A stretch of DNA of 54,873 nt, the filler included, from Catajapyx aquilonaris (lineage: Eukaryota): NCBI GenBank assembly GCA_000934665.2. It is 2 parts of 2 records of this genome, joined end to end, with 100 filler letters (N's around TTAATTAATTAA, not from the genome) between each part and the next. Parts side by side here need not be neighbours in the genome. Positions count along the whole stretch, not along the records: positions 1 to 27,406 come from JYFJ02005064.1; 1 more part is not named here. One strand, given 5' to 3'. How positions within the stretch are numbered: the first letter of the stretch is position 1; every line of letters begins with the position of its first letter. Made by a program: the position numbers and the translations under genes. Positions 7,280-30,784 of this stretch are shown one piece after another. The notes below the pieces were generated by a model. That model had not been told where the DNA came from, did not search any database, and worked only from the letters and a program-made list of their open reading frames with translations.

Positions 7280-8150
7280 TATGGAAACACCGTAGTCTGA
7301 AGGGAATACGTGTCACGCTATAGCAACTCGTGTGTATCTCACTCTATAATATCCAAGGCAAACACGAATCAAGAAAATAAATCCCATGTGAACATTTCAG
7401 ACTTCAGTTACTCAATGGGACAGTTCAGTGGAAGTGGAGTCAATTATATTATTGGCTCGTGTTTTCAGAAGAGAAGGTTTATAAATAGTGCAAAAGCCAT
7501 GTTTGGGTAGATGTCAAAAAAGGTGATTTCTGTGGAGGGGAAACAAGAAGAAGGCAATGCAAGAGAGGAAGATTCGAGAGGGAAGTGGTACAGACTGTGG
7601 ACGGTGGCCACGAATGGTGCATTATTTTGATGTAATACGCAACTTACCTCACCAACCTCTTTATTTCCCCCCATAATTTGACTAATGAAGCAGTGGAAAG
7701 AAGCCACAGCGAAAAATGACCACTGCAGTTATGAATATCGTTTCTGTACTTTGTCCGTAGATTAACTACATTTTTGCACATTTTAGAGCATTACATAATT
7801 TTATAGGCTTCAGTCAAAGAAAGGCTGTTAACTTTTTTCTCATTATATTATGCATAAGGTTAGAGGTGGTTGCAGTTGTAACCACATACTACCTCATAGT
7901 ACTTGTTCAGTTCAAAGGAGCTGAAAAGGTGGAGGACATTGTGACCACAACCGTTGACCTAACAAGCGGTGTTACGGTGCTGACTCCAGATAAGGAAATA
8001 TAGAGCAGGAATCAGAATTCATTTATTAAATTAGAATGTTTTTTTTCCATCAGTGATGATATACCTCTTGATCTTAAAAATGACCTACGACTGGCTGGTC
8101 AAAGATGCAGAATCTTTACGGGACATAAAAATCACTGGACAAAACATCGT
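7280..8150 (+). pseudogene. Degenerate duplicate of the GR at 960 with its 5' and 3' flanks
   Basis: 7280-7470 matches about 759-955; ATG at 7499 followed by TTT GGG TAG (W to stop); large deletions; last exon remnant YLIVLVQFKGAEKVEDIVTTT at about 7890-8003; 3' flank matches 2461-2610. Confidence 0.85.
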
Positions 8151-8157
8151 AGCTGCA

Positions 8158-8626
8158 ATGGGTGTAGTAGCCATGTTTGGAGGAACGTCGACAAAGGTGA
8201 TTTCGGTTCAGCAGGGGAAACCCCTCTGGTTGCCAATCCAAGCATCAAGCCTCACGTAAGTGTTCCTGCTGTATTACTTATATCGTATAGTATCAATAAC
8301 AAAAAATTTCACCATTTGTATCAGATTGAAGCCCTGCTCCAGAAGATGACAGGTCCTCCCATTGTGATTACTGCCGGTGGATACTTTTCCATCAACCGCG
8401 GCCTCTTGACCTCGGTATGTTGTCATTATGTCTTCAATGTTAGTATAATGTACCCTTGTACGCACAAGAAGAGAAAAGTTACTGCTTGAATCAATGATTC
8501 ACAAATCACTAATTGACATGCCAATTTTCCTTTAACACTTTTTCTCTATTTTCTCCAAAGATGGCAGGATTTGCGACTACGTGCCTCATTGTCCTGGCTC
8601 AATTCAAGGCCTATGAAGAAGCATAA
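8158..8626 (+). pseudogene. Chimeric GR remnant: A-type N-terminus fused to B-type C-terminal exons
   Basis: 8158-8215 matches 3239-3297 (MGVVAMFGG.STKVISVQQ); followed by the end of a B-type exon 2, exon 3 at 8325-8414 and exon 4 at 8561-8626 (MAGFATTCLIVLAQFKAYEEA*). Confidence 0.8.
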
Positions 8627-10694: not shown

Positions 10695-12079
10695 GCGCAT
10701 CAGGTAAAAGATCATGACATGTGTGCCGTAACTGGTGTTAATGATATTCACTAAGGCACTTAATTCGTAAATAGAGATCAACTGAAGATCTAGTGTTCAT
10801 ATTTATTTCGTTACTGTTTTGCTGCTCCAAAGTAGATGCAAGGATAAATTTTCATATTCGTCCACTGAAATCACTCTTGCCGACATTCCCCCAACTATGA
10901 ATTGGCAATAATTGCCCGACTCCTTTTATATGCAAAATATATGCAATGTCTCCAAAGTCGTTTGAATATTATGAACCACTTCTTACGAAACTATTCAAAG
11001 CTAAATATTATTGTCCATGAGAGTGTGTAGCCGATGTGCTCCAATTAGGGACTCCGATGCGTAACTGTCGTATCGATGTTTGATATCCGTTGGGATAACC
11101 TAAGACGACATCATTAATATTATGCCAGTGAATAACACAGCTTCAGTTGTCACCTTGTGACTCGTTCATTACAGAGACACAGTGAAAATTTATTGTAAAT
11201 GAAGTCTAGTTGTTTCTCTGTTGCTATGGAGCACTTCTGCATTGACTTTACATCATGATCGAGCCATGTTCTCATGTACAGTACGGTATACACATTAATA
11301 ATTAATAATTAATTTGTTTAAATGTGTGTTAACACTTCTACGCGGCTGCCGTGGGCGTGTAGTCTAGTTATGTACATTGACCTCGTCGCGTCATGTCGTA
11401 GGGCGTCTTGAAGGGCGCCTGGAGACATCTTCTCAAAGGTCACTCGGACATGTACCTTCCATCCTTCTTCCTCGACATGACCAACTTTTTACACTACTTC
11501 AGAGCCTACCCATGGCTGAAGGGTCAAGCTGACCTTTTGGATTGGAGATAATATTCCCATTGTACGTAAGTTGACGTAAGTACATTCTATAATTATTTCA
11601 ACTAAATATCACATACGCAATCGACATGGCGGAAGAGATTGGAACCTTATTCATCCCTCACACTTACACAGGAAGGGCTGCAGTCACACACCTGCAGATA
11701 ATCCATATTTAAAACATCGAATAACACGTTCCTTTCGGTGCTAGATGCAAACATGCATGCTTCAATATCTGGATCTGGTATGAAGACTTCAATGCAATGA
11801 GTAATTATTATCTTCGTCCTCCATGACAGTTTCTACCATTTATTTATAACACGATCACGAAACGCTGACTGACAAGTCACGAGATATCGTATTCACACAA
11901 TAGCACTTGATGAGTAAATAGTCCCACTCCCAAGATGTAAACTATCATTTATTTTGTACCCTGGCCGCTTGGTATTAGGGTGCGGTTCTTTTGAAGGCAA
12001 CAATCGATGAGAACTTATTCTTCTGTTGGGGACAAAATAATGTATTGGCAGTGGTGCTTCAAAAAGGAGTGAGGCAACA

Positions 12080-13473
12080 ATGTTTGGCAAAAGATCTACC
12101 ACAGTTTGCGTTGAAAGTGCCAATCAGTCTGGAGACAATGGGCAATATGCCGCCTTTTGGACCGCGTTCAAACCATTGGCAATCTTGGCCACCTTTGGAG
12201 GAATCGCTCCTTGTCCTTGGCCCAGGGAAAAGCCGAGTTGGAAGTGGTACCAACGGTGGCCAACAATGGTGCACTTCACTATACTGATACTGTCTGTCAT
12301 TACATACATCTACTTCCCACCGTTGACATGGAAAGGAATCGCCAAATTCAGTGCTACACGACGGTCAAAAGTGATCATTCTTCTGATCGTAACCTGCGCT
12401 ACGCCATGGATAAGTTACATTTGGATCCAAGGATGGGTGAGAAGAGTGTGGAAGCTGCTTCATCGCTTCTCTCAGCTTGATGTCATCAGGCATAAGAAAA
12501 CCCTTCATAAGCGTTCACTGATATTAGTGGCTGTCAGCTTTCTTCTGCCTTTATTGGAAACAATTACCTTAATTATCAGGCGTTTTGCGTTTATTTGCCA
12601 GCCCTTTCGAACTAAGGAACATGGTGAATTTATTCTTCATGTGCGGCACTGCTTCTTTTGGTTGCAATTGGTTCCCATTGTGGTGGCATTTCTAGCGACT
12701 GTTGTCCGGGAACTGTTGAACGAATTAAGTGAGAAAATTATTAATATGTGCGATTCATTATTTTTGTCTTCAGCAGATGGGCCGAAATCGAATGAAATTT
12801 TTGGCGAAAATATAGAGTTGATTTCTCGTAAATATTACGAACTGTGCTTTGTAGTGGAAAACGTGGACAGCGTTTATGGAATGTGCATTTTGGCTGCTTA
12901 CTTTATGAATGCTGTGAGGGCAATAAGCTCGATTTCTGAGTTGCTGTTGGTGCCCTTCATTAGTGTGTTAGACACAGCGGCATTAATCATCAACACCGGA
13001 GCCATACTAGCATCAGTAATTGCATTTACATTAATCTTGGGGTCCATACCATCTCAGGTATGTCATCATTTTTGCGGGGGTCATCGTGCAGTTATTAATA
13101 AAAACTCATCTTTTCAGAGCACAAGGTCTCTGACTCACCTGATTAGTACAGTACAGTACAAGCCCTCTGGTCACCAATCCAAACATCAAGGCTCATGTAA
13201 GTGTTCCTGCTGCAGTGTCAATACCACCTAATTTCATATTTTCAATCAGACTGAAGCAATGGTCCAGAAGATAACAGGTCCTCCCATTGGGATTACTGCT
13301 GGGGGATACTTTTCCATCAACCGCGGCCTCTTGACCTCCGTAAGTAAGTCCATCTCCAATATTCCAGTCTCCAAGAGGGGAAATGTTGTCTCCTATAATT
13401 CACAAATTAATGAACACATTAACATGCAAATTTTCCTTTACAACATTTTTCGCTTTCATTAATCCATAGATGG
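12080..13473 (+). pseudogene. GR subfamily B pseudogene
   Basis: Exon 1 (12080-13057) open; exon 2 (13118-13196) is 79 nt instead of 69 because of an AGTAC repeat expansion; exon 3 at 13250-13339; last exon deleted after its first bases. Confidence 0.85.
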
Positions 13474-14134
13474 TTATAATGATTGATATCCTGCAAATAC
13501 CAGGTAATTACGTAACACGTAACCTTGTCCATGTAATTATTATGTAACTTGGAACAACTGATGATCAATGTATTCTTCTATTGCTTATTTACTGTATTGC
13601 TGATTATTGGTGACGTCTGGCCTCTACTGAGACGTAGGCCTACTAAGTTTACATTATTAAAAATATTTTATGATGATGTCTCATCCGAGCACTATGGCCC
13701 GTGGCACGCCTATTGATGTGAGAATTTAATAAACATGGAGTTCTAGGTGTGACAGGTGTCCTCTTCACAACCAAATGTTTATATTACTCTACACGCTCAC
13801 AAGTTTCACGATAGTATTGATCAACATGCTAAATAATTATTGTGCCTTTGCATCATTAATATGTTGTTGACGAGAGCATTGGCAGTAGGCTTACTATTTT
13901 TCACACATACTGTATGTCATCGACAAAGGATACCTTCCAGCATCGTTTGATTTCTTCTGTGCTCCATCAGTATGGAAGTTGTTGATGATGAAGTAAAATG
14001 GAATAGTAAAACGCAAGTGCGTCTTAACTCTTCGGCCTCGCGCAAAAGAGGGGATTCGGGAGGGCAAAGTTTCCTGGACCCTGCCGAAGTTTCATCCGTG
14101 ACAGTTTCTAGCATTTATTTATAGCACTAACACG

Positions 14135-14468
14135 GGGAGGCGGAGTGGTGCTGCGGTAACGTACGCGCCCACGGATGTTAAGGTACCGGGTTCGATCCCA
14201 ACCCGGGGACACCCCCTTCATCACGTGCAGAGTTCAAGGGTCACCTCTGGCTTCGTCTCGGGTGGTATATCCACAGACTAAACCACCCGGGGGAGTTCAC
14301 TAAAAATGGCCACATTAAGACATTGCACTGCACCTTGCACATCCCCTCCTGTCATCCTGCCCGTGGGCCCGGGCGTTACGTATAAAGGCTCCAATGTACT
14401 TGGCATAATAAATAAAGGTCCGTGCTACATACCTCTGATGAGGTCAGCACTACCCCGGATTATTATTA
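14135..14468 (+). mobile_element. tRNA-derived SINE (family shared with 46229 and 54471)
   Basis: GGGAGGCGGAGTGGTGCTGCGGTAACG...GGGTTCGATCCC head; (TTA)n tail; 16-bp TSD TTATAGCACTAACACG at 14119-14134 and 14469-14484; empty paralogous site near 22915. Confidence 0.9.
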
Positions 14469-14718
14469 TTATAGCACTAACACGAAACAATGTATTTAGA
14501 CTGACAAGTTAGGAGAAGTATCATTATCGTTTTTCGTTAGAATAGTAATAGTGCAACAGCTTGCTATGGGTTAATAGCCACGCACTTAAGCTATAAACTA
14601 TCCAATGAACCTTGTCCGAGTGACAGGGTGCGGTTCTTGTGGAAGCAATAATCAATGAGAACTTATTCTGTTGGGGACAAATGTTGGCAGTTGTGCTTCA
14701 AAAGTGAGTGAAGCAACA

Positions 14719-16169
14719 ATGTTTGGCAGAAGATCTACCGTTGTTTGTGTTAAGTCTGGAGACAATGGCCAATATGACGCCTTTTGGACCGCGTTCAGAC
14801 CATTGGGAATCTTGGCCACCGTTGGAGGAATCGCTCCTTGTCCTTGGCCCAGGGAAAATCAGAGTTGGAAGTGGTACCAACGGTGGCCTGCAATGGTGCA
14901 CTTCACTATTCTGATCCTGTCTGTCACTACATACATCTACTTCCCACCGTTGACATGGAAAGCAATTGCCAAATTCAATGCTACACGACGGTCACAAGTG
15001 ATGATTCTTCTGATCGTAACAAGTGCTACTCCATGGATAAGTTATATTTGGATCCAAGGAAGAGTGAGGCGAGTGTGGAAGCTGCTTCATCGCTTCTATC
15101 AGCTTGATCTCAGCAGGCATGAGAAACCCCTTCACAAGCGTTCACTGATATTGGTGACTGTCAGCGTCCTTCTGCCTTTATTGGAAGTAATTAACTTAAT
15201 TATCAAAAGTTTTGCGTTTTCTAGCCCATTCGAGCTTAGGAACATTTTGAATTTATTCTTCATGTGGCACTGCTACTTTTTGTCTCATTTGATCCCCACT
15301 CAGGTGGCATTTCTGACGATTGTTGTCTGGGAATTGTTGCACGAGTTAAGTGAGAAAATTATTAATACGTGCGATTCATTATTTTTGTCCTCATCAGGAG
15401 AGAGGCAGAAAGCGAATGAAATTTTTGGCGAAAATATAGAGTTGCTTTTTCGTAAATATTACGAACTGTGCTTCGTAGTGGAAAACATGGACAGCGTTTA
15501 TGGAATGTGCATTTTGCCTCATTACTTTATGAATGCAGTGCGGGTAATATGCTCGATTTCTGAGTTGCTGTTGGTGCCATTTGTTAGTGTGTTGGACACA
15601 GCTGCATTAATTACCATCACCGGAGCCACACTGATATCAATAATTGCATTTACTTTGATCCTGGGATCCATACCATCGCAAGTATGTCATCATTTTGGCG
15701 CAGGTCATAGTGCAGTTATTAATAATTCATATTTTCAGAGCACACGGTCTCTGACTCATTTGTTAAGTGCAACCCCTCTGGTCACTAATCCAAACATCAA
15801 GGCGTATGTAAGTGTTCCCTTTGCTTTGCTAATGTCAATACCAACTAATTTCATATTTTCTATCAGACTGAAGCACTGGTCCAGAAGATGACAGGTCCTC
15901 CCATAGGGCTTACTGCCGGTGGATACTTTTCCATCAACCGCGGCCTCTTGACCTCAGTAAGTTGTCAATATATCTTCAATATTCTAGTACTGTGTTGTAC
16001 CCGAGATGAGAAAAGTTACAGCATGAATGATTGACAAATCAATGATACATACAATGACATGCCAATAATCCTTTAACACTTTTCTCTGTCATTTTCTCCA
16101 TAGATGGCAGGATTTGCGACTACGTGCCTCATTGTTCTGGCTCAATTCAAGGCCTCTGAAGAACCATAA
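14719..16169 (+). CDS. Gustatory receptor, subfamily B, intact (~395 aa); exons 14719-15681, 15739-15807, 15867-15956, 16104-16169
   Basis: Open multi-TM exon 1; three phase-0 introns at the same positions as in the GR at 960; LTAGGYFSINRGLLTS; ends TTCLIVLAQFKASEEP*. Confidence 0.88.
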
Positions 16170-16807
16170 TGGTGCTGGTGGAGTTTATTGGCAGAGTCGA
16201 GGAAAGAATGTACAATGACCTAATTAAGACCTGCTTTTCTTCTCTTTATTATTTTTTTCTCTACCTAGGCCTACATGGTGTCGTGCAAAAGGCTGATCTT
16301 TCCTAATAATGATTGATATTCTTCAAGCACCAGGTAATGATGTACCACCTAACCTTGTCATGTAGTCATTATGTGACTAAGGATATCCTATATTATATTT
16401 ATGACCAATGTATTTCCCTATTCACTCTTATTTACTGCCATGCCGCTTATCGGTGACACTGGTCACTACTGACTGTGAGAGGTAGGCCTATTGCATTATA
16501 AAAATCTTTTATGATGATGTATTAGCCACGCACTATGTCCCATTGCAAGCCTATTGATGTGAGAATTTAATAAAGATGGAGCTCTAGGTGTCAGGTGCAC
16601 TCCTCCCAGCCAAGTATTTGATACTCTACACCTAAAAGCTCTCCTCACACCGTGTAAATTTTTCTTTCACCGTATTCCAACTGCTTCCAACTCTGATCAC
16701 CAGTTGGCCTTCTCTTCACTCTCATCCCGTGCCTCCCGCTGTGGAGACAGCCAAAACTACTGGGTGGAAAGGCCACAATATTGGCTCAAGTGGACTCTCC
16801 AGCCTCA

Positions 16808-17075
16808 CTATGCTCTTGTTACGTTAGGTGACTCTGAAATAGAAAAATCATCCACCTTTTCTGCTCCTTTGAATTGAGCCAGTACTATGAGGTATGTGGT
16901 CACAGATCCGGCAACCTGAAGGGGGAATCAAAATTAATGTCAGTGGATTAATGGCAACTATACCCTATTTAGCAGCGCAACTTACAGACGTCAAGAGGCT
17001 TCGATTAACCGTGAAGTAACTGGCCGCAGTTATCTCCATGGGAGAACCAGTCAATTTCTGGATCAGCGAATCGAT
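16808..17075 (-). pseudogene. Orphan last two exons of an A-type GR (16986-17075, 16808-16915)
   Basis: IDSLIQKLTGSPMEITAASYFTVNRSLLTS and VAGSVTTYLIVLAQFKGAEKVDDFSISESPNVTRA*; splice sites intact; no GR exon 1 found upstream. Confidence 0.8.
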
Positions 17076-18022
17076 CTGAATTAATGAAGTGCAAGTCAAC
17101 GTAATTGTTGTAATTTTTGATTTTGTCATTAGTATTTGATCAAGGTGCACTCTACTGAACATCTAAAAACATTACTCTAGAACACTTACGTATGCTTTTG
17201 TGACCGGGGCAATTCCAGTAAAGGAAGTGAAACGGAGGTCACAGAAAGCGACAACGAGCATTTTCTCAGTCTTTTCTTGTGACTTTGAACATTTTGATTT
17301 GAAAATCCTATGCGAATGAATAATAGGCCCCAGTTGAGGTCTCCTGCGTATATATTCCAGAGAGACAGTTACAAATATTGGATGTGTATATTTCACGTGT
17401 TTCTTTGTTGCTCTGGAGCACGTTTTCACATTTTATGTGCCATGAAAAATTATTACATATTACACTAAAGCTATGTTATCATAATACTGTTTAGTTGGAC
17501 TAATTAGCGCCAGCAGATTACGCACTGGATATATTACCAAATTGTTCCAGATTCGTGGGTAACTTTTTGATAACCTACTACTTATAGTGTGCATTATTTC
17601 TACTGGCTTATGTAGTGTGCATAGTGCTTTATATCTGATGGCTTATCGATGCAGCTTTTCATACATCCGTGAGTGACGATTAGTGTACATGTCGCTGCTT
17701 CCTGGAGTGTGCTCATATCGGGTTAGGCCTGCATTTGTATTTGCATTTGTTTCTACTGATATGACACTTAAAGTAATAATAATAATAAAGCTATACACCG
17801 TAGGCAGATGGGGACTAGGATGGAAGGAAACGTGTGCAGACTAATTAACACGAAGATAAATATTTTAAATCATTGAATTTACTTTCACTTCCCTAGAAAT
17901 ACAAGACAAAAATTCTGGATATACATACTTTACGTATTTGACAATATTGAAAATACATAATTATTGCAAACTCTCCGTGTCTCGATCCTTCATTATTACC
18001 GATGTACGGAGTAATCTGGTAA

Positions 18023-18895
18023 TTAATACGATCCGCATTCCTGTAACACAACAAATACGAGGAGCATTAATGATGCATTACGTACCTACGTTAAAAAGTT
18101 TCATTCAATTGAAAACAATAGTTTCACAAGGATTCTATACATCACCTGCATGAATTTTGTCTTGACGCATGCTAGAGGTTTTAAGAAATCACATCTCTCC
18201 AGAGATTCACCTTCACCTGCAGGACAGTAATGGAACAATGAGAACGGGAATGTGTTCCAACATATTGAAGTGTGTGTAGGGTACACGGGTATTGCAATGC
18301 TAACTAACCTGTTTCTACGCAGTGGGTGAACGTTTCGACGAAATACTCGTTGGTCTCTTCGTATCCTTCTTCGGGCAGAAAGAAATCCGCCACCTCCTGT
18401 GGTTTCACGTTTAAATCATCATCAACCTATACACCGACCACAATTTAAAATAATTACTCCCAAATAAAACCGTAATGATCATTATTTTGTTCGCTGATTC
18501 CACACTGTAGCTACATTGCACCTTACATACCAGGTCTAGAAAGTGGCACAGGCATATTACACGGTCACACTGAAAATAAAAGATGCATATTGTATCATAA
18601 TTAGTACGTTACTTATTCAGTTTGAAGAAATTATTGTGAGTTAAAAGTGAGCATGTTTTACACACCACTTCAGATTCCCCGCGAATTCCTTTAAAGTCGC
18701 AGGCCGTAAACGCTGCTTCTAGCCCTTCTTTTGCGCTTTCTTTGAGCTCCTTCGGCTGCCGGCAGCGAGCAGCAGGCTGAGAAACAGAAAGAAATGTGAC
18801 AAAACATTTCTTAACAATCACTGTAATAGACTCACCTCATCTTGGGCTGCTGCAAATGCTGACAAGAGAAGGACAAAGGTGGCTGCGAAGATCAT
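18023..18895 (-). CDS. Secreted Cys-rich protein, odorant-binding-protein-like (Plus-C-like), ~138 aa; exons 18836-18895, 18666-18776, 18531-18569, 18309-18426, 18146-18216, 18023-18040
   Basis: Phase-compatible GT-AG exons give MIFAATFVLLLSAFAAAQDE-PAARCRQPKELKESAKEGLEAAFTACDFKGIRGESEV-CDRVICLCHFLDL-VDDDLNVKPQEVADFFLPEEGYEETNEYFVETFTHCVETG-EGESLERCDFLKPLACVKTKFMQ-ECGSY*; signal peptide on its own exon; 9 Cys. Confidence 0.72.
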
Positions 18896-19189
18896 TGTTG
18901 CTCTCTATTGTTACAGAATGGGAATGAAGTGCATTGCACAATATCGCGTACTTATGTAGTGTTAATTATCTCGGGGGATATGGCTGCAGCCTTTCCTATG
19001 CACACATGTGTGAGTGACGATTAGTGACTATGCTTCCTCAAATGTGCTGATATAGGGTGAGGCACGTACGGTATTGATATTCCAATTAAAAAGTGATGTA
19101 CCAGGCGTACTACTGTCGGTTATAGCAGACTCGGTTATAACAGACTGTAACCCTCGAGTTTTCTTGCATGCCCCCTGATCCGATTTTAA

Positions 19190-19656
19190 CCCTTAACCTC
19201 GTAGGTGGGTGAAACACCTTTAACTACGTAGGTGGAGCCTGAAAGGCTCCAACGGTATATTTAAATTTCTGCTTATCAACTAAATTGTTATATTGGACTT
19301 TTCACATACAGAAAGTGCAGTTCAGATCATTAGGCTTCCGAGAACGTAAAAATCACACGCTGAGTCAGCATATTCCGACAGGGAAAAATTCTTCATTAAA
19401 AGGTTACATCATGCTTGAGCCGCTCAGTCTTCACCTGCATAGGTAGAGCCAGTATAGAGTCCAGGAGGGACCTGTTCCCCGTTACGAATTTTTTTAAACC
19501 AAACAATAGGGACTTAAAAAAAAATTCCTTTTCATGCTTAGGCAGGTTTGTCTGACGAAGTCACGGAAGGACAGGGGAAAATAAAATTCGATGAAAAAGT
19601 TACATGCGTTTAAATAGTGCTTGGAGCCTCTCAGGCTCCACCTACGTAGTTAAGGG
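19190..19656. mobile_element. Non-autonomous piggyBac-type element
   Basis: TTAA at both flanks; CCCTTAAC...GTTAAGGG ends; inverted CTACGTAGGTGGAGCCTGA.AGGCTCCAA subterminal repeats. Confidence 0.8.
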
Positions 19657-21343
19657 TTAAAGACGTATCCACGTCAAAAGAGGATTGTAATGTATTATGG
19701 CAATTATGGGCTGCCTAAGCACATTTCCAAGCTTGTATAACTTGCCTTTTTATGACTTGCAATGAAACACAGATTTTGAACGAATCAGTAACACGCAGTG
19801 TACTGCAGCTTTAGCACTTGATCCTTTCTTCCTGCCATAAGAGGAAACAAACTCCCCCGAGAGACATATCGCCATATGCCAGTAGGTAGCATAACAGATA
19901 AACCGAATTGCATTATAACTAATGGACTGTGACATACGGTAGGCCAACATTTAAAATGTTATTGTTGCCTTCACTTCTTCTCGTACATTTTTAATGCCAT
20001 CATTAAGCCTATAAGGTCATAAAAGTACATAAACAACATAGTGTTGCAACTACATTCGAGTAGGGGATATACTTTGATATAGATGAGAATCAAGTGTCTG
20101 TAATTTAACAAATTTTTAAATTTTTAAAATGAGAAAAATCTACCGTACATTTTTGTTTTGAATTTCTCCAATTTGGCTACCAAAATATTATTTATTTGAT
20201 GAAAATTATTTCAATGTGATATTATTAATATAATTTTAAGATATTCACAAGTTACAGGGGACTTGAAACCTTTGAAATACCTATACTTGTTTGATGTACA
20301 GTACCTTGACTGTCACTCCCATTGACAGTTCACGTATGGCAAAACATCTTATTTTCAAAATTAGCTGAAACCAAGGCTGAAACATGTCAAGCAGTTTCAA
20401 CAAGCCAAGAAGCAAGACACTTCCATGCAAGAACCATCTCACATTCCACAATCTATATAAAGTTTGTCAAGAAACAAATACCTGTGCGAAGGTACAGTAA
20501 ATGATGCTGACCCCCATAATTTTCAAAGGTCTATCAACTATGATGTTACTTTATTTTGTAACTTCTATATGTGGATAGTGTTTTGCAACATAATATTATC
20601 AAAGCTCTTCTGCAACTTGCGCTGATTATGTAAGTGCCATCTTGTATTCTAAGTAGCATTTGCAGCACAAATTAGTAATTCGCTGATTTATTATTCTTGA
20701 CTTGATTCTTGATTTGAAGCCATCAGTGGCATATATAATACAAATTGTCACCAAACAAATAATTAATCAAACACGGCTGCAACCCAGACAGAATGACGAT
20801 GACTAATAATAATTATCTGCTGGCCGAATTTACCTCCATGACAGTTTCTATACCATTTATTTATAACACGATCACGAAACGCTGCATTAAGACTGACAAG
20901 TCACGAGATATCGTATTCACACAATAGCTCTTGATGAGTAAATAGTCCCACTCCCAAGCTGTAAACAACCATTTGTACCCTGGCCGCTTGGTAGGGTGCG
21001 GTTCTTTTGAAGGCAACAATCGATGAGAACTTATGCTTCTGTTGGGGACAAATGTATTGGCAGTGGTGCTGCAAAAAGGAGTGAGGCAACAATGTTTGGC
21101 AAAAGATCTACCACAGTTTGCGTTGAAAGTGCCAATCAGTCTGGAGACAATGAGCAATATGCAGCCTTTTGGACCGCGTTCAGACCATTGGCAATCTTGG
21201 CCACCTTTGGAGGAATCGCTCCTTGTCCTTGGCCCAGGGAAAAGCAGAGTTGGAAGTGGTACCAACGGTGGCCAACAATGGTGCACTTCACTATTCTGAT
21301 CCTGTCTGTGATCACATATATGTACTGTACATAATTATGTACT

Positions 21344-21425
<82 letters not shown>
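21344..21425. repeat. Compound (GAC)n(GAT)n microsatellite
   Basis: Directly visible trinucleotide runs. Confidence 0.95.
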
Positions 21426-21428
<3 letters not shown>

Positions 21429-21544
21429 TTTGGAAATAATTTTTATTACAAGCCAGGCCGACTGTACACGTTGCGTACATAAATGATACTCTAGAATAAT
21501 TCCGAATTAAATAATGAACCAATCCATAGGACATTTATTACTGT

Positions 21545-21774
21545 ACAATTGTAAGTATTTGTGCAATTATGATACAATGCATACAAACAGTGCAATGAAT
21601 ATTACATAAGTTACATAATTTGAATAGATTTTCTTTTTACGAGGTTTCGATGTTGTTGTCATTATTCTGTAATACATTTCGCATATTTTTTACACACATA
21701 AGTTCACCAATGAGCAAGAGCATACCACCACCCCAACAACAGGTGGCAAGAAAAATCATCACACCTCTCAGTTG
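21545..21774 (-). pseudogene. 3' fragment (M4 helix, tail and 3' flank) of an IR paralog
   Basis: Reads QLRGVMIFLATCCWGGGMLLLIGE versus QLRGVMIFLATCCWGCGMFLFIGE in the IR at 4741; flank similarity extends to about 4625-4740. Confidence 0.85.
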
Positions 21775-22261
21775 CGTTTGCCTGCCCTTTCGAACTAAGG
21801 AACATGGTGAATTTATTCTTCATGTGGCACTGCTTCTTTTCGTCGCAATTGATCCCCATTAAGGTGGCATTTCTGGCGACTGTTGTCAGGGAACTGTTGA
21901 ACGAATTAAGTGAGGAAATTATTTATATGTGCGACTCATTATTTTTGTCATCAGGAGAGGGGCCAAAAGCGAATGATTTTTTTTTGCAATAATATAGAGT
22001 TGATTTCTCATGAATATTACGAACTATGCTTCGTAGTGGAAAACGTTTATTGTCAGAGAGGTAGGCCTACGAAGTTTGCATTATTAAAAATATGTTATTA
22101 TGTCTCAGCCGCACACTATGAGTGCCCGTAACACGCCTATTGATGTGATATAATTTAATAAACATGGAGCTCTAGGTGTGTCAGGTGTCCTCTTCACAAC
22201 CAAATGTTTATAATACTCTACACGCTCACATGTTTCACGATAGTATTGATCAACATACTAA

Positions 22262-22409
22262 GGGCCAGTTGCACCGGCCTCAGTATAACTTAGAACCTCG
22301 GGTATAGCAAGAATTGCCATAGCAATCATTGTTGACCAACAATGATTGCTACGGCAATTCTTGATATAGCCGAGGTTCTAAGATATACTGAGGTCGGTGC
22401 AACTGGCCC
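22262..22409. mobile_element. PIF/Harbinger (Tourist-like) MITE, almost fully palindromic
   Basis: GGGCCAGTTGCACC...GGTGCAACTGGCCC with TAA TSD; paralogous empty site at about 13825-13845 (CATGCTAAATAATTATTGTG). Confidence 0.9.
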
Positions 22410-23174
22410 TAAATAATTATTGTGCCTTTGCATCATTAATATGTTGTTGACGCGTTGCATGGCTTCGTGCAATTGGCAGTAGGCTTACTATTTTCCACAC
22501 ATACTGTATGCCATCGAAAAAGGATACCTTCCAGCATAGTTTGATTTCTTTTGCGCTGCATCAGTGGAAGTTGTTGAATGTGAAGTAAAATCATGCTAAG
22601 AGTGCAAATAACAACATTTATTGGTAAACAAAAAAATGGTGATTCAACCTCGGGTATACAATAGAGAGGAGAGGTAAATGGACAGCCGGGTAAGGGGAAA
22701 TTAACATCAATCACACCTTGTTGTGGGAAACCAATTCATCCAAAATAAATGGTGCTCAACAACCCTTATTTTTCGCTTCAAGCTGTCAACCAGCCATTGT
22801 GACAGTGTTCTGCTTCATTGCCATTTGCATCATTGCATCTTGTTCATGTGCAAGCATGAGAGTAAGTAATATTATCTTCGTGCTGAAGTTTCATCCGTGA
22901 CAGTTTCTAGCATTTATTTATAACACGACAACGAAACAATGTATTAAGACTGACAAGTTACCAGAAGTATCATTATCGTTTTCCGTTATAATGGCAATAA
23001 TGCAACAGCTTGCGATGGGTAAATAGCCACGCTCTTAAGCTATAAACATACTATCCAATGAACCTGGCCCGCGTGACAGGGTGCGGTTCTTGCGGAAGCA
23101 ACAATCGATGAGAACTTATTCTTCCGACGGGGACATATGTTGGCAGTTGTGCTTCAAAAGGGTGTGAGGCAACA

Positions 23175-24667
23175 ATGTTTGGCAAAAGATCAACCGTCGT
23201 TTGCGTTATGTCTGGAGACAATGAGCAATATGCAGCCTTTTGGACCGCGTTCAGACCATTGACAATCCTGGCCACCTTTGGAGGAATCGCTCCTTGTCCT
23301 TGGCCCAGGGAAAAGCAGAGTTGGAAGTGGTACCAACGGTGGCCAGCAATTGTGCATTTCACTATTCTGATCCTGTCTGTTATTACATACATCTACTTCC
23401 CACCGTTGACATGGAAAGGAGTTGCCAAATTCAGTGCAACACGATGGTCAAAAGTGACCATTCTTCTGATCGTAACAAGTGCTACTCCATGGATAAGTTA
23501 CATTTGGATCCAAGGAAGAGTGAGGAGAGTGTGGAAGCTGCTTCATCGCTTCTCTCAGCTTGATCTCACCAGGCATAAGAAACCCCTTCACAAGCGTTCA
23601 CTGATATTGGTGACTGTCAGCGTCCTTCTGCCTTTATTGGAAGTAATTAACTTAATAATCAAAAGTTTTGCGCTTTCCAGCCCATTCGAGCTTAGGAACA
23701 TTTTGAATTTATTCTTCATGTGGCACTGCTACTTTTTGTCTCATTTGATCCCCACTCAGGTGGCATTTCTGGCGATCGTTGTCTGGGAATTGTTGCACGA
23801 GTTAAGTGAGAAAATGATTAACACGTGCGATTCATTATTTTTGTCCTCGTCAGGAGAGAGACAGAAAGCGAACGAAATTTTTGGCGGAAATATAGAGTTG
23901 CTTTTTCGTAAATATTACGAACTATATGCTTCGTAGTGGAAAACACGGACAGCGTTTATGGAATGTGCATTTTGGCTGCTTACTTTATGAATGCAGTGCG
24001 GGCAATATGCTCGATTTCTGAGTTGCTCTTGGTGCCCTTTGTTAGTGTGTTGGAGACAGCGGCATTAATTACCATCACCGGAGCCACACTGATATCAATA
24101 ATTGCATTTACTTTGATCCTGGGATCCATACCATCGCAAGTATGTCATCATTTTTGCGCGGGTCATGGCGCAGTTATTAATCATTCATATTTTCAGAGCA
24201 CACAGTCTCTGACTCATTTGTTAAGTGCAAGTCCTCTGGTCACCAATCCAAACATCAAGCCGTATGTAAGTGTTCCCTCTGCTTTGCTAATATCAATACT
24301 AACTAATTTCATCATTTTCAATCAGACTGAAGCACTGGTCAAGAAGATGACAGGTCCTCCCCTTGGGATTACTGCCGGGGGTTACTTTTCCATCAACCAC
24401 GGCCTCTTGACCTCGGTAAGTTGTCAATATATCTTCAATATTCTAGTATAAGGTACCCTTGTACCCGAGAGGATAAAAGTTACCGCTTGAATCAAATATT
24501 CACAAATCAATGAATACATTCAATGACACATGCCAATTTTCCTTTAACACTTTTCTCCATAGATGGCCGGATTTGCGACTACGTGCCTCATTGTCCTGGC
24601 TCAGTTCAAGGGGTCTCTAATTACCATGATGTTGCTGGTGGAGTTTATTGGCAGAGTCGAGGATTGA
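23175..24667 (+). pseudogene. GR subfamily B, full length but with one 2-nt frameshift; exons 23175-24139, 24197-24265, 24326-24415, 24563-24667
   Basis: TACGAACTATATGCTTC at about 23916 versus TACGAACTGTGCTTC in the intact paralog; all splice sites intact; last exon runs past the paralog's stop. Confidence 0.8.
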
Positions 24668-26954
24668 GACCTGCTTTTGTTCCCTTTATTATTATTTTTA
24701 CTCTACCTACATGGTGTCATGCAAGAAGGTTGATCTTTCCTAATAATAATTGGCCTTCTTCAATCACCAGGTACTGACGTTACACCTAACCTTGTCATGT
24801 AGTTATTATGTAACTTGGAATATCCGATGATCACTGTATTGTCCTATTCACTCTTATTTACTGTTTGTTGCTTACTGGTGACGTCTGCTGGCCTCTCCTG
24901 AGAGGTAGGCCTACTACAGTATTATTATTTAAAAACCGTTAATGACGATGTCTCGGCCACGGACCTATTATTGATGTGGGAATTTAATAATGATGAATCT
25001 ATTTTTATAAAATATGGAGCTCTAGGTGTGCCAGGTGCGATCTTCACGGCTAAGTGTTTAATATTCTAGTCTGCACTATCAGATGTTTAGCGATAGTATT
25101 GATCAGCACGATAAATAATACCTGTGCCTTTTCATCATTAATATGTTACTGACGCCTCGCATGTCTTCGTGCATTTGGCAGTAGGCGTACCATTTCTCAC
25201 ACATACATCATCGACAGAGGATGCCTTTGATTTTTTCTGAGATCGACAATATTAGTAGTGGAGGCTGTTGATATTGATGTAAGATGAAATAGTGCCTGTT
25301 GAATTTTGCTTCGTGGAGGTGTCAGAACTATTACGCCAATTTGATGACCTACCGACATCGACAGTTGCAACGGTTTGTTTCTTTTCCGCGAGAATGCTCT
25401 TCACGCTTCTGACGACTTGCCGCTATGCGTAAAGCGTAATAGTCCATTGTTACTGTAAGGGACGACTAGTAAACCCTCTCCAAAACTGGCCTATTTATGT
25501 TACTTACCATTGAAAGTGTATAGACTAGTGTTTTTTTCAGGCTACTACTGTACATGCGAGAAAGATCATACCCATTTCATTACTTATTTGTAACGACAAG
25601 CCGGCGGGCGATGTGACGAGACTTGCAAAACTCAACTTGAAGGCACGGTTCCAATAGTCGCCAGGCAAGCAGCATTTTTCATAAGAATGCTGCACGTTAT
25701 GAGAACACCAAACTTGGCATACATCATGTCCACACCTATTGTCAACGTTTAGGAAGGGGAGCCACCTGATATATATCCCCGAAACAAAATGGCGGTCATA
25801 TGTTCAGAAATGGCCGCCTTAAAATTTAAATTACCTTCATGACTGGAATCCTGGAACTCGGATTCAATAAAAAGCTCAAAAGGACGCATTATAGTGCACA
25901 TAAGAGATGCAGTCATCCATGGGGCCTGGACTGTTCTCATAAGAACATACTGTTGATACTCATGTGTTGGTACTTGCCATATCTTTCTTCTTTGAGTTGA
26001 GGACTTTGGGCCTTGAAGAACTGTGGGATTCATTTAACTTAGGTCAGAAACAAAGGTACATTCCAGCTCACATCAGCTTTGTTCAGAGAAATGTGTCGCC
26101 CCACGGAGCTTCCACGCATTCACAGGGTGTGACACTGTTTCAACATTTCCATTCCATGGGAAACTCAGTGCCTGGAACACATGGAAGTCCTATGATTAGG
26201 CTACTTCTGCTTTCCGTGCCATTTCAACTCCACTTTCAAAACTGCCAATGGACGTGCTTCATGAGCTAGAACAATTTGTCGTCTGCACACTATAAGAAAT
26301 ACTTGGGCGGGACTCTAAGACATATGTTTTCGACTTCTGAGGAAATACTGTTTCACAGACTCCCTCCTATATATACCTGAGAAGCACTCCGACAGCATGC
26401 TTTGAGAGCTGTTTATCCGGGCGACCACATTTGTGGTCAGTGTGTAAGCCCCCTTTACTTTTTATTTATTTATTAGTTACCCTGTTGTCATTAAATCTTA
26501 CTCCCATGAGTGGTAGTCAGAAAAACGCAGGCATAGTCCCTTAAAGCTTAAATACATTTGCATTGCACATGAAATGCGCAAATACCTTGTAATATTATGT
26601 TCAAGCCCAATGTGAATGTCTGTTTGCAGGGCAGTCCTGCTGGATTCCGAGCCAATCAGACACCGACCGTCCGTCGGCCATTTTGGACTCGGGGCCAATC
26701 GTAACCTCTGCTTACATTCGACCAAAATTTTGGGTTAGGAAACATTTCAAAATGGTGGCCACTGTTGCCTCCCATTCCATCTGGGAATCTGACTGAAATG
26801 AGGGTACATAAAGACGCATTTCCCTCAGGCCGAGAGTACCTATCAATAAATATACACTCTAATGCTAATTAAGTATTGAACATTGCTACAGCATTGCTGT
26901 GGACAGTCATGCACAATAGAGCAGGTGAAAATGATATGTTATAATAAATAATGA

Positions 26955-27406: not shown

Positions 27407-27506
27407 NNNNNNNNNNNNNNNNNNNNNNNNNNNNNNNNNNNNNNNNNNNNTTAATTAATTAANNNNNNNNNNNNNNNNNNNNNNNNNNNNNNNNNNNNNN
27501 NNNNNN

Positions 27507-27732: not shown

Positions 27733-30700
27733 TGCAAGCTGTGAAGTGGACGGAAGACGTACATGCTCCTTGCAGCTGTCAGGAAATCTCAGCATCAGTG
27801 TGCAAGGAGGGTCTAAAAAGCAAAAGTAGTTGTAATTATGCATAACCCGATGGATGATGAACTTTTCCCCAATGGTGAATGTTCGATGCTAATAACGCAA
27901 TGAAGAATTTGGCATATTTTTGATCAACTAAGGTACGACTTATAAATACTGCATTACATTTCCTGAAAATATCTCCTGGACGTGAATCCCTAAGCAACAG
28001 ACCTGATTCACTTCCTAGGTAATCCATCCACGAGCCGGCCACCTTTGGTTCAAGCTTGGGATCGTCCTGAGGCAATGTCTCTTTCTCTTCTGCAACTCGG
28101 GCTCTCTTACGCTTGAACCATTCCTCCCCGTCTTTCGACTCCTCCTTCCCCCTATCCTCTTCCCCCTCGGATTCAAATGTCTCTAGATCACTCCCGTCCT
28201 GCTCTGACACTGCTCCTGAATCAGTTCCTTTCCCCTTCAGCGATTCCCTGATGGCTGCCTCAAGCTGAGAATCCTCAGACGCATCCAATATTGATTCAGC
28301 TGTTGCCCCGACTGCCGCACTGCTAGGCCTCTGTGGTCTGGCTGGTGACCTGATTCCATCCATTGAAGGGTGCTCGGAGAGAAACTCAGTGGCTAGGTCA
28401 CAGAAAGACACGGCGTCCAGGCGATGCCACACACGGAGAGATTCTCCAGTCTGAGGGTCAAGGATGGCTACATATGGCCACTGTGTCACCTTGTAAAATG
28501 CCATGTACCGCTGTCCATCACTGCTGTCCATGTAAACCTGTAAGTTGACATTCCAATGTAGTGACAATACACCTCAAAAAGCCCCATTTACATGGAGCTA
28601 TGTGATCAGCAATGTTGCAGCGATGAGACCAATTGTTGGGGGGAAAGATATACGTATTGCTACCATGCGACCTTCGCTCAGTGACGTATATAGTTGCACA
28701 TCGCTGATCAAATCACTTGCATGTAAACACGGCTTAATGCCTCATAGGCTATGGCATGTGGCATTTCAACAAAAGACAACTCACCTGCCAGAAAATAAAG
28801 TGCTCCTGGACAATGTTCTTGACGGAGGTGTTGGACCAAACATCCCGGTTGAGCACCTGACAGGCAAATTCCTGGACGTTCTGTACATTTACTAGTAACC
28901 ACTTCTTCAATGACACACCCTTGTCACGAGCCTGTAACAATAAACATGTTTTTATAAGCATAATTCTCTCAAAATTACATCGACTTTAGAAATTCTGGCC
29001 AGTGGCACCGCAATGCAACAGGATGTATGTTTTCTAAGTGTTAGAATTGCCATCCACTCTTCTAATGAGGTATTGAACTTTCGTCAGAGCCCATGGAAAA
29101 ATAATCACCAAACTACTAGGGTCTCCAGTAAATACTTATTTCTTTACCTTTAAAATATGAGCACCCTCTGATAATGCCATTGGAGAATCAGTATTTTTTC
29201 AGTGCTCTGAATGGTGGTAAGTTGCTCTATGCATTATCCATTTGAAGTCCTATAGTCATAAACAGAAAATCCAAATACTTCTTGCACTCACACTCTGAAA
29301 GGACCCTCTAAAGATCATGTCCAGTGGCGGTCGAAACAAATCTTCTAGAGTCTTTCGCTTCCGTGAAGGAACAGAAGATGAAGCTCCATCAACCACACCT
29401 AACAATTCCTCCTGTCGTCCTGAAGAAAACAAATTTGTTAAAATTTTGTTCCAGAACAAAACTGTTGATTACACATACTGGTTTCAACTTGGAAATCCCT
29501 GAAGCCATCGAATACAGATCGAACAGTTCTTCTCTTCCCCCTGAAGCCATAAGCAAATATTTCCTGTCCTGGGCCAACTAACACTTCTTGCACTGGTGGG
29601 ATAGGAGCCCTCACCGTTTCTTCACCATCAGGCTCAGCATTAACTGCTGCTGAGGAAGCGGACGGAGCTGCTGAAGAATTGTTGGAGGCAACCGAGGAAT
29701 GCTTCTGATGTCCACCACCTAACTCGGATTCAGTGGATTCAATATGCATATTGATTGCCATCTCCAGGTTATCATTGCAGGCTTCCAGTAGTGACAGTGC
29801 CACCGTTGAGTCTGCCCCTGTGGAATAAGCAATTTGTTGAAATTTGAAATATTTTCATAAACTCTGTGCACAAAAACATCGAAGATTAGGGACGGAGTGC
29901 AGAAAATTAGGGAAAGGCAATAAAGCTGGAAAGTTGACAGTTATTATGCAGAATAATAACGTCAAGATTATGAGACACAGAAAAAATTGTAATGTGTGTG
30001 CAAAATTACACAGGACTCATTAGTTTCACCAGCCTTTTGCCAGCTCTTACCAACATCCCAGTATTTTTGGTTAAGGTCTGTCTGGTGGCGAGCACCAAGC
30101 CAAAGTAACATGATGCATGCATTAGCCTAGTCTATCTCATGTAGCAGAATTTTTCAAGCTACAAGCTGAATGTGACACCGTTCCACTAATTGGACATTCT
30201 GGACATGTGAACATCAGATTGAAAACTTCTTGCCCGTCACTCCCGCTGATCAACTGCATCCTCAACCAGGGGTTCATCCCAGAAACGCAAGAGCATCTCA
30301 ACAGGCAAACTACCCAGGAGGAAAACTCAGCAGCAGCGAGTCAAAATGATCAGTTGCTCATCATTCGCTCCACATGTCCACTCAGTCCAACTAGTAAAGC
30401 CTTGCAACTTGCGGTACGTCTCTTGCACTAGTGCGATCCGTAGTAATGTGATTTCAGCCTTTAATTGACTGGCCTAGCAGGTACTGTGTTATGCTGTGCC
30501 AGCGCATTCTGCATAGCATTGTTATTCTTACAGTAATTAACCACAATCAACACCGCCCCTTACTAGCCAAAATCAGAGGAATTAGAATGGCATCAATCAG
30601 CATGATGATTACGCTATTATCTGCCTCTTTACAATGCCCATCTCCCGAACTCCTTTTCGAATCCCTTCCCCACACATTCAAGACGCGGCCAGCCCCATTT

Positions 30701-30784
30701 CCGACCCGGCCCGACCCCCACTTCACCTGTGATTGAGCAGAACTGCTCCACCATGTCATCCTTCCGTTTGGCTGTGGACGCCAT
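27733..30784 (-). CDS. UBXN7: UBX domain-containing protein 7; exons 30727-30784, 29479-29817, 29292-29419, 28785-28931, 28003-28537, 27733-27812; final exon not found (probably at or beyond the gap)
   Basis: UBA-like region (FCSITGAD...LLEACNDNLEMAIN), VRAPIPP, TLEDLFRPPLD, UAS domain KWLLVNVQNVQEFACQVLNRDVWSN, UIM SEDSQLEAAIRESL, UBX start LMLRFPD. Confidence 0.9.
28580..28734. mobile_element. Degenerate Harbinger-like MITE (same family as 31496)
   Basis: AGCCCCATTTACATG...CATGTAAACACGGCT ends; shares CATCGCTGATCAAATCA..GCATGTAAAC with the copy in the mRpS25 intron. Confidence 0.6.

What the first reader, a model, noticed from the sequence alone, without database searches (positions are those of the whole stretch)
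18023..18895. Hidden six-exon OBP-like (Plus-C-like) secreted protein inside the receptor cluster
Seen: six short exons with canonical splice sites join in frame into a ~138-aa protein with a signal peptide on its own phase-0 exon and 9 Cys. The ORF track shows only fragments. Known: OBPs have a C..C...L.L.D segment, a C5-X8-C6 pair, and Plus-C members add a C6-X8-C extension and N-terminal Cys. Here the segments are CDRVICLCHFLDLVDDDLNV, C-X7-C and C-X8-C without the Pro. Inference: an atypical OBP-like carrier; the odd Cys count may allow dimerisation. Classic OBPs are considered hexapod-specific, so this would be more notable if the host is a crustacean, myriapod or basal hexapod.
Basis: partly seen in the sequence, partly recalled or inferred. 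Interest (0 to 1): 0.82.

Follow-up and report, generated by a model that had tools for sequence, protein, structure and literature searches.

The report
Small secreted nine-cysteine protein gene
A small, intact six-exon gene for a secreted, acidic, cysteine-rich protein lies inside a taste-receptor gene array of an arthropod outside the winged insects; it looks loosely like an odorant-binding protein, but that kinship could not be proven here.

Summary
On the minus strand, six exons (18895-18023) with GT-AG borders join in frame into a 137-aa protein (138 with an alternative exon-2 donor). It has a signal peptide on exon 1 and 9 Cys. Codon usage, exon/intron GC contrast and splice-site quality all exceed chance.

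The OBP reading is unproven. The strict classic and Plus-C cysteine formulae both fail. The best six-Cys fit misses three gaps by one residue each, and 125 of 20000 shuffles fit as well. Single exons gave no hit in Pfam, PDB sequences, two protein libraries or the Atlas. The spliced protein could not be handed to the fold or HMM tools. Two exon pieces fold as helices at low confidence.

The ninth Cys depends on an unverified 18-nt last exon. Reading through intron 5 gives 8 Cys.

The host is an arthropod outside winged insects and spiders. The gene is single-copy in the window and sits in a ~4.2-kb unique segment that interrupts a gustatory-receptor tandem array.

The scan has already noted several 8-Cys OBP-like clusters elsewhere in this genome. 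This gene shares no words with them. Modest interest.

The parts
18836..18895 (-). Exon 1: start codon (18895-18893), signal peptide and three further residues; ends in phase 0; donor GTGAGT
18669..18776 (-). Exon 2 (36 codons, Cys25 and Cys46); weak donor GTGGTG; an alternative in-frame donor three bases downstream (exon end 18666) adds one residue
   Evidence: AF2 of this piece gives one helix, pLDDT 55.9
18531..18569 (-). Exon 3 (13 codons, Cys57, Cys62, Cys64); candidate C2/C3 region; donor GTATGT
18309..18426 (-). Exon 4 (118 nt, acidic, Cys105 near its end); ends in phase 1; donor GTTAGT; weak acceptor tract
   Evidence: AF2 of this piece gives two helices, pLDDT 68.6
18146..18216 (-). 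Exon 5 (71 nt, Cys117 and Cys125, C-X7-C); donor GTGATG
18023..18040 (-). Exon 6: five codons plus TAA; supplies Cys134 (the ninth Cys, C-X8-C); least certain part of the model
18101..18145 (-). Alternative ending if intron 5 is not spliced: 14 more codons then TGA, giving a 146-aa protein with 8 Cys; GC 0.29, intron-like
19001..19063 (.). Upstream copy of a short direct repeat that brackets the gene (core; the alignable stretch is ~140 nt, 18935-19075)
   Evidence: 74% over 69 nt, E 3.5e-6; only two copies in the window
17660..17728 (.). Downstream copy of the same direct repeat (core; ~17590-17740)
16600..20830 (.). About 4.2 kb of sequence with no counterpart in the other ~2.6-kb gustatory-receptor repeat units; holds the gene. 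Limits are approximate, read from the repeat families.
   Evidence: start-to-start spacings 2627, 6385, 2071
14659..15891 (+). Main exon of the flanking gustatory-receptor-family gene on the low-coordinate side
   Evidence: 31% identity over 343 aa, E 2e-52, to ORF 846-1994, which matches Pfam 7tm_7 at E 1.1e-14
21011..22025 (+). Flanking receptor copy on the high-coordinate side; its ORF is interrupted by a trinucleotide-repeat tract (probably decayed)

Best explanation
This is a real, intact, single-copy six-exon gene. Its product enters the secretory pathway through a cleaved signal peptide. The mature protein is small (~13.5 kDa), acidic, mostly helical and held together by about four disulfides.

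It is most likely a very divergent member of the arthropod odorant-binding-protein / OBP-like group of extracellular carriers, which shield small hydrophobic molecules inside a disulfide-braced helical bundle. It sits in a unique segment inside a gustatory-receptor tandem array, so it may be expressed in the same chemosensory tissue.

Shown: gene structure, open frame, coding signal, signal-peptide-like N-terminus, Cys positions and genomic position. Inferred: secretion, helical bundle, disulfides, ligand carriage, kinship with OBPs and any link to the receptors.
For: - Gene model and its statistics.
- Mature size 117-120 aa, pI 4.4-4.5, 9 Cys. Insect OBPs are described as 120-140 aa, six-helix, six-Cys proteins (PMC8222343, passages read).
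- The best six-Cys subset (25, 57, 62, 105, 117, 125) has gaps 31, 4, 42, 11, 7. The classic formula is 25-30, 3, 36-42, 8-14, 8 (PMC5623005). The total deviation is 3 residues, reached by 125 of 20000 composition-preserving shuffles.
- Both exon pieces that could be folded are helical with no strand.
- The gene lies among 7tm_7 gustatory-receptor genes and near a Lig_chan ionotropic-receptor gene.
- Unchecked earlier notes of this scan report many 8-Cys OBP-like genes, some with six exons and some interleaved with IR/GR genes, elsewhere in the same genome.
Against: - The strict classic and Plus-C regular expressions both fail. The two most conserved spacings, C2-X3-C3 and C5-X8-C6, are each off by one.
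- No Pfam family at E<=10 for exons 2, 4 and 5.
- 0 of 177635 PDB sequences at E<=10 for the same three pieces.
- 0 of 1,835,955,588 representative proteins at E<=0.001 for exon 4.
- One word-sharing candidate, not scored, among the longer proteins of the 5.8-billion library.
- The Atlas neighbours of exon 4 are unnamed or EF-hand clusters with few shared features. Exon 5 with its read-through tail gave no usable hit.
- No word-level look-alike among the scan's other windows, including the 8-Cys clusters of this genome.

All of these searches used pieces of 36-40 aa and have little power. There is no expression or conservation evidence at all.
Confidence: 0.45

Rival explanations
1. It is a real gene, but for a lineage-specific ('orphan') secreted cysteine-rich helical protein that is not related to OBPs. 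It could be an immune, reproductive, glandular or cuticular factor. On this view the position among receptor genes is an accident of insertion or array growth, and the near-fit of the Cys spacing is coincidence made easier by having nine Cys to choose from.
For: - No sequence match of any kind for any exon.
- Both published OBP formulae fail.
- The gene sits in a ~4.2-kb segment foreign to the receptor repeat unit and is bracketed by a short direct repeat. This fits independent arrival rather than co-evolution with the receptors.
Against: - Only 0.6% of shuffles fit the classic Cys formula as well.
- Size, acidity and helicity are those of OBPs.
- OBP-family members often share under 10-15% identity (PMC4145409, PMC8222343). 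Blank searches with 36-40-aa pieces therefore say little.
Confidence: 0.3
2. The true product is a five-exon, 146-aa, eight-cysteine protein. On this view intron 5 is not an intron, and the reading frame runs on for 14 codons to a TGA at 18103-18101. The ninth Cys, the terminal C-X8-C and the 'odd cysteine' idea would then be artefacts of a chance 18-nt exon. This concerns the model, not the family, and is compatible with either reading above.
For: - The frame stays open for 14 codons past the exon-5 donor.
- The donor GTGATG matches only 4 of 6 consensus positions.
- A five-codon terminal exon is easy to find by chance.
- Eight Cys is an even number and matches the count reported, unchecked, for the genome's other OBP-like families, one of them with five exons.
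Against: - The read-through stretch has GC 0.29, like the introns (0.28-0.43) and unlike the exons (0.39-0.56).
- The exon-6 acceptor is good (TTACAG, pyrimidine tract 0.65).
Confidence: 0.25
3. It is not a working gene. It could be a chance chain of open fragments, or a silent or decaying copy.
For: - There is no transcript, orthologue or paralogue evidence.
- No canonical AATAAA lies within 420 nt downstream; only AATAAT and AGTAAA variants occur.
- Two splice sites are weak.
Against: - Independent signals agree: the frame-specific codon score (1% tail), the exon/intron GC contrast (22 of 14902) and an intact frame through six exons.
- The N-terminus is a textbook signal peptide, and the Cys pattern is non-random.
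Confidence: 0.12

Closest known systems
Classic insect odorant-binding proteins (Pfam PBP_GOBP, PF01395)
   Same: Signal peptide. Mature ~120 aa and acidic. Long Cys-free helical stretches. A six-Cys subset lies within one residue per gap of C1-X25-30-C2-X3-C3-X36-42-C4-X8-14-C5-X8-C6. An acidic stretch follows the C2/C3 region.
   Different: C2-X4-C3 and C5-X7-C6 replace the near-invariant X3 and X8, and C1-C2 is X31. There are three extra Cys. No HMM or sequence match at exon level. The fold is untested.
Plus-C insect OBPs
   Same: More than six Cys, including one 8 residues after the candidate C6 and extra Cys in the N-terminal half.
   Different: No Pro after C6. No C4-X19-29-C4a-X9-C5 arrangement. 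Only 3 residues follow the last Cys. The formula quoted in PMC5623005 fails.
OBP-like proteins of chelicerates and myriapods (e.g. Varroa destructor OBP1; 21 genes in the centipede Strigamia maritima)
   Same: Small secreted helical Cys-rich proteins in non-insect arthropods, very divergent from insect OBPs and from each other (PMC8222343, PMC5952958). This fits a host outside the winged insects.
   Different: Those have six Cys with C1-C6, C2-C3, C4-C5 pairing and five helices. Here there are nine (or eight) Cys with unknown pairing. The phmmer search of PDB sequences with three exon pieces found no relative.
The 8-cysteine OBP-like gene clusters noted by this scan on other pieces of the same genome (e1-7596167, e1-7593906, e1-7499558, e1-7593693, e1-7500799, e1-7708544)
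   Same: Same genome. Small multi-exon (five or six exons) genes for secreted Cys-rich proteins that are missed by ORF scans. Some are interleaved with IR and GR genes (unchecked notes).
   Different: This gene is solitary, not in a tandem array. It has nine Cys in the six-exon model. It shares no short words with any noted window. Their sequences could not be read here.

Membership tests
Classic insect OBP (PF01395 PBP_GOBP) | Signal peptide; small soluble acidic mature protein of about 120-140 aa | tested here: met
   Hydrophobic N-terminus on exon 1. Mature 117-120 aa, 13.3-13.7 kDa, pI 4.39-4.47. No SignalP-type program was available; the signal peptide was judged by reading.
Classic insect OBP (PF01395 PBP_GOBP) | Six-Cys signature C1-X25-30-C2-X3-C3-X36-42-C4-X8-14-C5-X8-C6 (as quoted in PMC5623005) | tested here: not met
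   The regular expression fails on both models. The best subset has gaps 31, 4, 42, 11, 7, with three gaps off by one. 125 of 20000 shuffles fit as well.
Classic insect OBP (PF01395 PBP_GOBP) | Significant match to the Pfam PBP_GOBP profile | tested here: inconclusive
   0 families at E<=10 for exon 2 (36 aa), exon 4 (40 aa) and exon 5 plus read-through (37 aa). The whole spliced protein could not be submitted.
Classic insect OBP (PF01395 PBP_GOBP) | Six-helix fold with three interlocked disulfides (C1-C3, C2-C5, C4-C6) | not testable with these tools
The exon-4 piece gives two helices (pLDDT 68.6) and the exon-2 piece one helix (pLDDT 55.9). Foldseek on the 40-aa model gave only histones at E 8.8, which is meaningless.
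Classic insect OBP (PF01395 PBP_GOBP) | Expression in chemosensory tissue and binding of small hydrophobic ligands | not testable with these tools
Plus-C OBP | C1-X20-41-C2-X3-C3-X41-46-C4-X19-29-C4a-X9-C5-X8-C6-P-X9-10-C6a, with Pro right after C6 (PMC5623005) | tested here: not met
   The regular expression fails. The residues after Cys125 and Cys134 are not Pro. The observed gaps are 20, 10, 4, 1, 40, 11, 7, 8.
Chelicerate/myriapod OBP-like (Varroa type) | Six conserved Cys paired C1-C6, C2-C3, C4-C5; five-helix fold lacking helix 2 (PMC8222343) | not testable with these tools
   Pairing and fold cannot be derived here. The Cys count differs (9 or 8). The phmmer search of PDB sequences on three exon pieces found nothing.
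This genome's 8-Cys OBP-like families (earlier scan notes) | Recognisable sequence similarity to those genes | tested here: not met
   The look-up by sequence (exon 4) and by place (16000-20700) found look-alikes in 0 windows. That look-up only sees roughly 60-70% identity or more, so distant paralogy is open.

The most novel reading that the evidence does not exclude
The gene is a surviving, highly divergent intermediate between insect-type OBPs and the OBP-like proteins of chelicerates and myriapods, carried by an arthropod lineage outside the winged insects. It has shifted core spacings (C2-X4-C3, C5-X7-C6) and an unpaired ninth cysteine. Its seat inside a gustatory/ionotropic receptor array reflects shared regulation of carrier and receptors.
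Probability: 0.12. Interest if true: 0.6.

Novelty: new variant of a known kind. Interest (0 to 1): 0.3.

Why it matters
The literature read here still argues about where insect OBPs came from. It is unsettled whether they are confined to hexapods (PMC4145409, PMC5850775) and how they relate to the OBP-like genes of chelicerates and centipedes (PMC5952958, PMC8222343).

A genome from an arthropod outside the winged insects that carries many OBP-like genes, including odd solitary ones such as this, is useful material for that question. By itself, though, this one gene adds little. It has no detectable relatives, no expression data and no fold. Its most unusual feature, the ninth cysteine, rests on an unverified 18-nt exon.

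Its practical value is as an annotation that ORF- and homology-based pipelines would miss.

Tried and rejected
1. RNA evidence. The look-up of sequencing runs (kind rna) on 17850-19000 listed no RNA holder, so read laying could not be used. This is no evidence either way.
2. Whole genome. None is held for this window, so paralogues outside the window could not be sought.
3. Relatives of the protein.
   - Exon 4 against the 5.8-billion library (longer proteins): 1 candidate, none scored.
   - Exon 4 against 1.84 billion representatives: 0 hits.
   - PDB sequence searches with exons 2, 4 and 5 plus read-through: 0 each.
   - Pfam at E<=1 and E<=10: 0.
4. Atlas. Exon 4 gave unnamed and EF-hand clusters at 0.90-0.92 with only 92-123 of 256 shared features, read as chance. 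Its acidic N-terminal stretch does not fit an EF-hand loop by eye, using a consensus recalled from memory. The exon-5 piece gave no usable hit.
5. Foldseek on the 40-aa exon-4 model returned two histone chains at E 8.8. This was discarded as meaningless for a helix-turn-helix fragment.
It was not pursued.
It was not pursued.
8. I hoped the 14 control genomes of the genome search might hold insect OBPs for a local profile. I took a bacterial handle with a 16S primer pattern and searched PF01395. Nothing rang in 0 of 14 controls, so this was a dead end.
9. A second, decayed gene copy after the downstream flanking repeat was sought. tblastn and blastn of the gene against the window found none. 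The best non-self protein hit had E 0.52.
10. Host identification. N-acetylglucosamine-6-sulfatase hits are all about 47-57% identical across Metazoa. The named UBXN7 hits (10 of 13) are all non-hexapods: a priapulid, a scorpion, a horseshoe crab and seven non-arthropods. Neither result names a close relative.
11. Other Cys-rich families (saposin-like, CHH/ITP, insulin-like, CSP) were considered from recalled Cys patterns only, and set aside because the spacings do not fit. They were not tested by any search.
12. The earlier-findings look-ups returned nothing. Paper search added nothing usable.

Full report
**What is there**

| Exon | Coordinates | Length |
|---|---|---|
| 1 | 18895-18836 | 60 nt |
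| 2 | 18776-18669 | 108 nt |
| 3 | 18569-18531 | 39 nt |
| 4 | 18426-18309 | 118 nt |
| 5 | 18216-18146 | 71 nt |
| 6 | 18040-18023 | 18 nt, including TAA |

- The five introns are 59-105 nt long and all are GT-AG.
- The 414-nt reading frame has no stop and gives 137 residues. A second in-frame donor three bases further on in exon 2 would give 138.
- Exon 1 ends in phase 0. It encodes a short hydrophobic N-terminus with small residues before the likely cleavage site.
- The protein has Cys at 25, 46, 57, 62, 64, 105, 117, 125 and 134.
- The stop-to-stop ORF list shows these exons only as fragments of 20-75 aa amid many others, so 'hidden' is fair.

**Is it more than chance?**

- A codon log-odds score was trained on 2585 codons from the window's Pfam-supported ORFs. 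It is +16.7 in the proposed frame, against -30.5 and -40.8 in the other two. 1.0% of about 5000 random window segments reach it.
- Exons are 48% GC and introns 34%. Laying the same exon/intron mask at 14902 other places in the window gives as large a contrast 22 times.
- The acceptors' pyrimidine tracts are reached by 10 of 20000 random sets of five AGs. The donors' match to GTRAGT is reached by 39 of 20000 random sets of five GTs. These two are partly circular, because the sites were chosen by eye.

Together with an intact frame and a textbook signal peptide, I take the gene as real, with probability about 0.85-0.9.

Weak points:
- The exon-2 donor is GTGGTG or GTGTGT.
- The intron-3 acceptor tract is only 0.41 pyrimidine.
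- There is no canonical AATAAA within 420 nt downstream; only AATAAT and AGTAAA variants occur.

**The last exon matters**

The ninth Cys and the terminal C-X8-C come from an 18-nt exon.

- If intron 5 is not removed, the frame runs on for 14 codons to a TGA. That gives a 146-aa protein with eight Cys.
- The read-through stretch is 29% GC, like the introns, and the exon-6 acceptor is good. I therefore favour the six-exon form.
- Only a transcript can decide. The 'odd cysteine, hence dimer' idea hangs on this exon.

**Surroundings**

- ORF 846-1994 matches Pfam 7tm_7 (E 1.1e-14), and ORF 4741-6555 matches Lig_chan (E 6.5e-9).
- The ORFs at about 12041, 14659, 21011 and 23112 are tandem copies of one unit. 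The copy at 14659-15891 is 31% identical over 343 aa (E 2e-52) to the 7tm_7 ORF. The gene therefore does sit inside a gustatory-receptor array with an ionotropic receptor nearby.
- The array's start-to-start spacings are 2627, 6385 and 2071 nt. The long interval holds about 4.2 kb (roughly 16600-20830) with no counterpart in the other units, and the gene lies in it on the opposite strand.
- The gene is bracketed by a short direct repeat (cores 17660-17728 and 19001-19063, 74% identical, E 3.5e-6, only these two copies in the window).
- No second copy or remnant of the gene exists in the window. The best non-self tblastn hit has E 0.52.
- I infer that the gene either predates the array's growth or arrived independently. 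Nothing shows co-duplication with the receptors.

**Host**

- The window's N-acetylglucosamine-6-sulfatase exon finds 847 proteins at E<=1e-20. The 120 listed are only 47-57% identical and come from all over Metazoa.
- I built a quick maximum-likelihood tree of this exon with 31 of those 120, picked for having names: 13 winged insects, 5 spiders, 2 crustaceans and 11 outgroups.
- The tree puts the window inside an arthropod clade (SH-aLRT 97). It falls outside the clade of the 13 winged insects (89) and outside the spiders (99), on a long unresolved branch.
- The 245-aa UBXN7 exon finds 13 proteins. The best named ones are a priapulid, a scorpion and a horseshoe crab at 39-46%.
- So the host is an arthropod without a close annotated relative and is not a winged insect.
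- Earlier notes of this scan call the genome springtail-like. I did not test that beyond the tree.

**What is the protein?**

Positive indications:
- The mature size is 117-120 aa and the pI about 4.4.
- There are long Cys-free stretches.
- AlphaFold2, in single-sequence mode, makes two helices from the exon-4 piece (pLDDT 68.6) and one from the exon-2 piece (pLDDT 55.9), with no strands.
- The classic OBP formula is quoted in PMC5623005 (passages read). Against it, the best six-Cys subset (25, 57, 62, 105, 117, 125) has gaps 31, 4, 42, 11, 7, so three gaps are off by one residue each. Only 125 of 20000 shuffles of the mature sequence fit as well.

Negative indications:
- The strict classic and Plus-C expressions both fail. 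The two spacings that define the family, X3 and X8, are the ones that are off.
- There is no Pro after the candidate C6, and no C4...C4a gap of 19-29. 'Plus-C-like' is therefore not supported.
- Every sequence search with single exons was blank:
  - Pfam at E<=10.
  - PDB sequences at E<=10.
  - 1.84 billion representatives.
  - The word-indexed 5.8-billion library.
  - The Atlas gave only low-overlap unnamed or EF-hand neighbours for exon 4 and nothing for the exon-5 piece.

These queries were 36-40 aa long and have little power. OBPs are known to fall below 10-15% identity among themselves (PMC4145409; PMC8222343).

The decisive tests are an HMM or profile search and a fold prediction on the whole spliced protein. 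No database entry for this protein or a relative was found to stand in for it.

**Comparison with what is known**

From the passages I read:
- Insect OBPs are 120-140 aa, six-helix, six-Cys proteins with C1-C3, C2-C5, C4-C6 bridges (PMC8222343).
- They have been reported from Collembola and Zygentoma, but not from Diplura or Protura ESTs (PMC4145409).
- They were reported absent outside Hexapoda (PMC5850775).
- OBP-like genes exist in all chelicerates examined and in a centipede, which has 21 copies (PMC5952958).
- The Varroa protein has a five-helix variant fold and different Cys pairing (PMC8222343).

The present protein works, on my reading, like these carriers. Membership in any of the named groups is not established, and for Plus-C it is contradicted.

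Within this scan, five earlier reports describe clusters of 8-Cys OBP-like genes on other pieces of the same genome, and one describes such genes interleaved with IR and GR genes. These are unchecked notes. The present gene shares no short words with any noted window. If they are right, a solitary divergent copy next to receptors is an expected by-product of a large, fast-evolving family.

**Verdict**

- The interpretation 'atypical OBP-like carrier' is plausible but unproven (about 0.45).
- 'Plus-C-like' is not supported.
- The dimerisation idea is unsupported and rests on the weakest exon.
- Rivals are an unrelated orphan secreted protein (0.3) and a non-functional locus (0.12). The eight-Cys five-exon form (0.25) is an alternative model compatible with either family reading.
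- The finding is a useful annotation and a modest datum for the origin of OBPs. It is not a surprise in a genome already seen to be rich in such genes. Interest 0.3.

Noticed in passing
window 11800-25300: Tandem array of at least four gustatory-receptor-family units of ~2.6 kb (starts near 12041, 14659, 21011, 23112), up to 96% identical between some copies. Conserved spacer blocks follow each gene (e.g. 13597-13971, 22024-22565, 24868-25206).
   Followed up: partly
window 21340-21425: A long (GAC)n/(GAT)n trinucleotide tract interrupts the receptor copy at 21011-22025, giving poly-His/Arg/Asp/Met runs in several frames. That copy is probably decayed.
   Followed up: partly
window 19177-19669: MITE-like element: terminal inverted repeats 19216-19252 / 19621-19657 (37 nt, 95% complementary) and 19177-19208 / 19638-19669, about 370-430 nt apart, just upstream of the gene's flanking repeat.
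   Followed up: no
window 17590-17740 and 18935-19075: A ~140-nt direct repeat (about 75% identical in alignment) brackets the gene at a spacing of 1341 nt. It has no other copy in the window, and no second gene copy follows the downstream repeat. Its origin is unknown; it could be a duplication scar, a small mobile element or a shared regulatory block.
   Followed up: partly
window 4741-6555 (-): Single-exon 604-aa ionotropic-receptor-like ORF (Pfam Lig_chan, E 6.5e-9) with one N at 6375. It lies between gustatory-receptor fragments (846-2461, 3104-3520, 8004-8489).
   Followed up: no
window 27407-27450 and 27463-27506: Two runs of N (assembly gaps) beside an (AT)-rich simple repeat, just downstream of the UBXN7-like gene.
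   Followed up: no
window 27836-33663 (-): Housekeeping neighbours: UBXN7-like exons (27836-28573, 29438-29854) and N-acetylglucosamine-6-sulfatase exons (32110-33663). Their best database relatives are only 40-57% identical, so the host has no close annotated relative.
   Followed up: partly
window 42689-43366 (-): 225-aa ORF with a hydrophobic N-terminal segment and a Ser/Thr/Pro-rich body; no Pfam family at E<=1.
   Followed up: no
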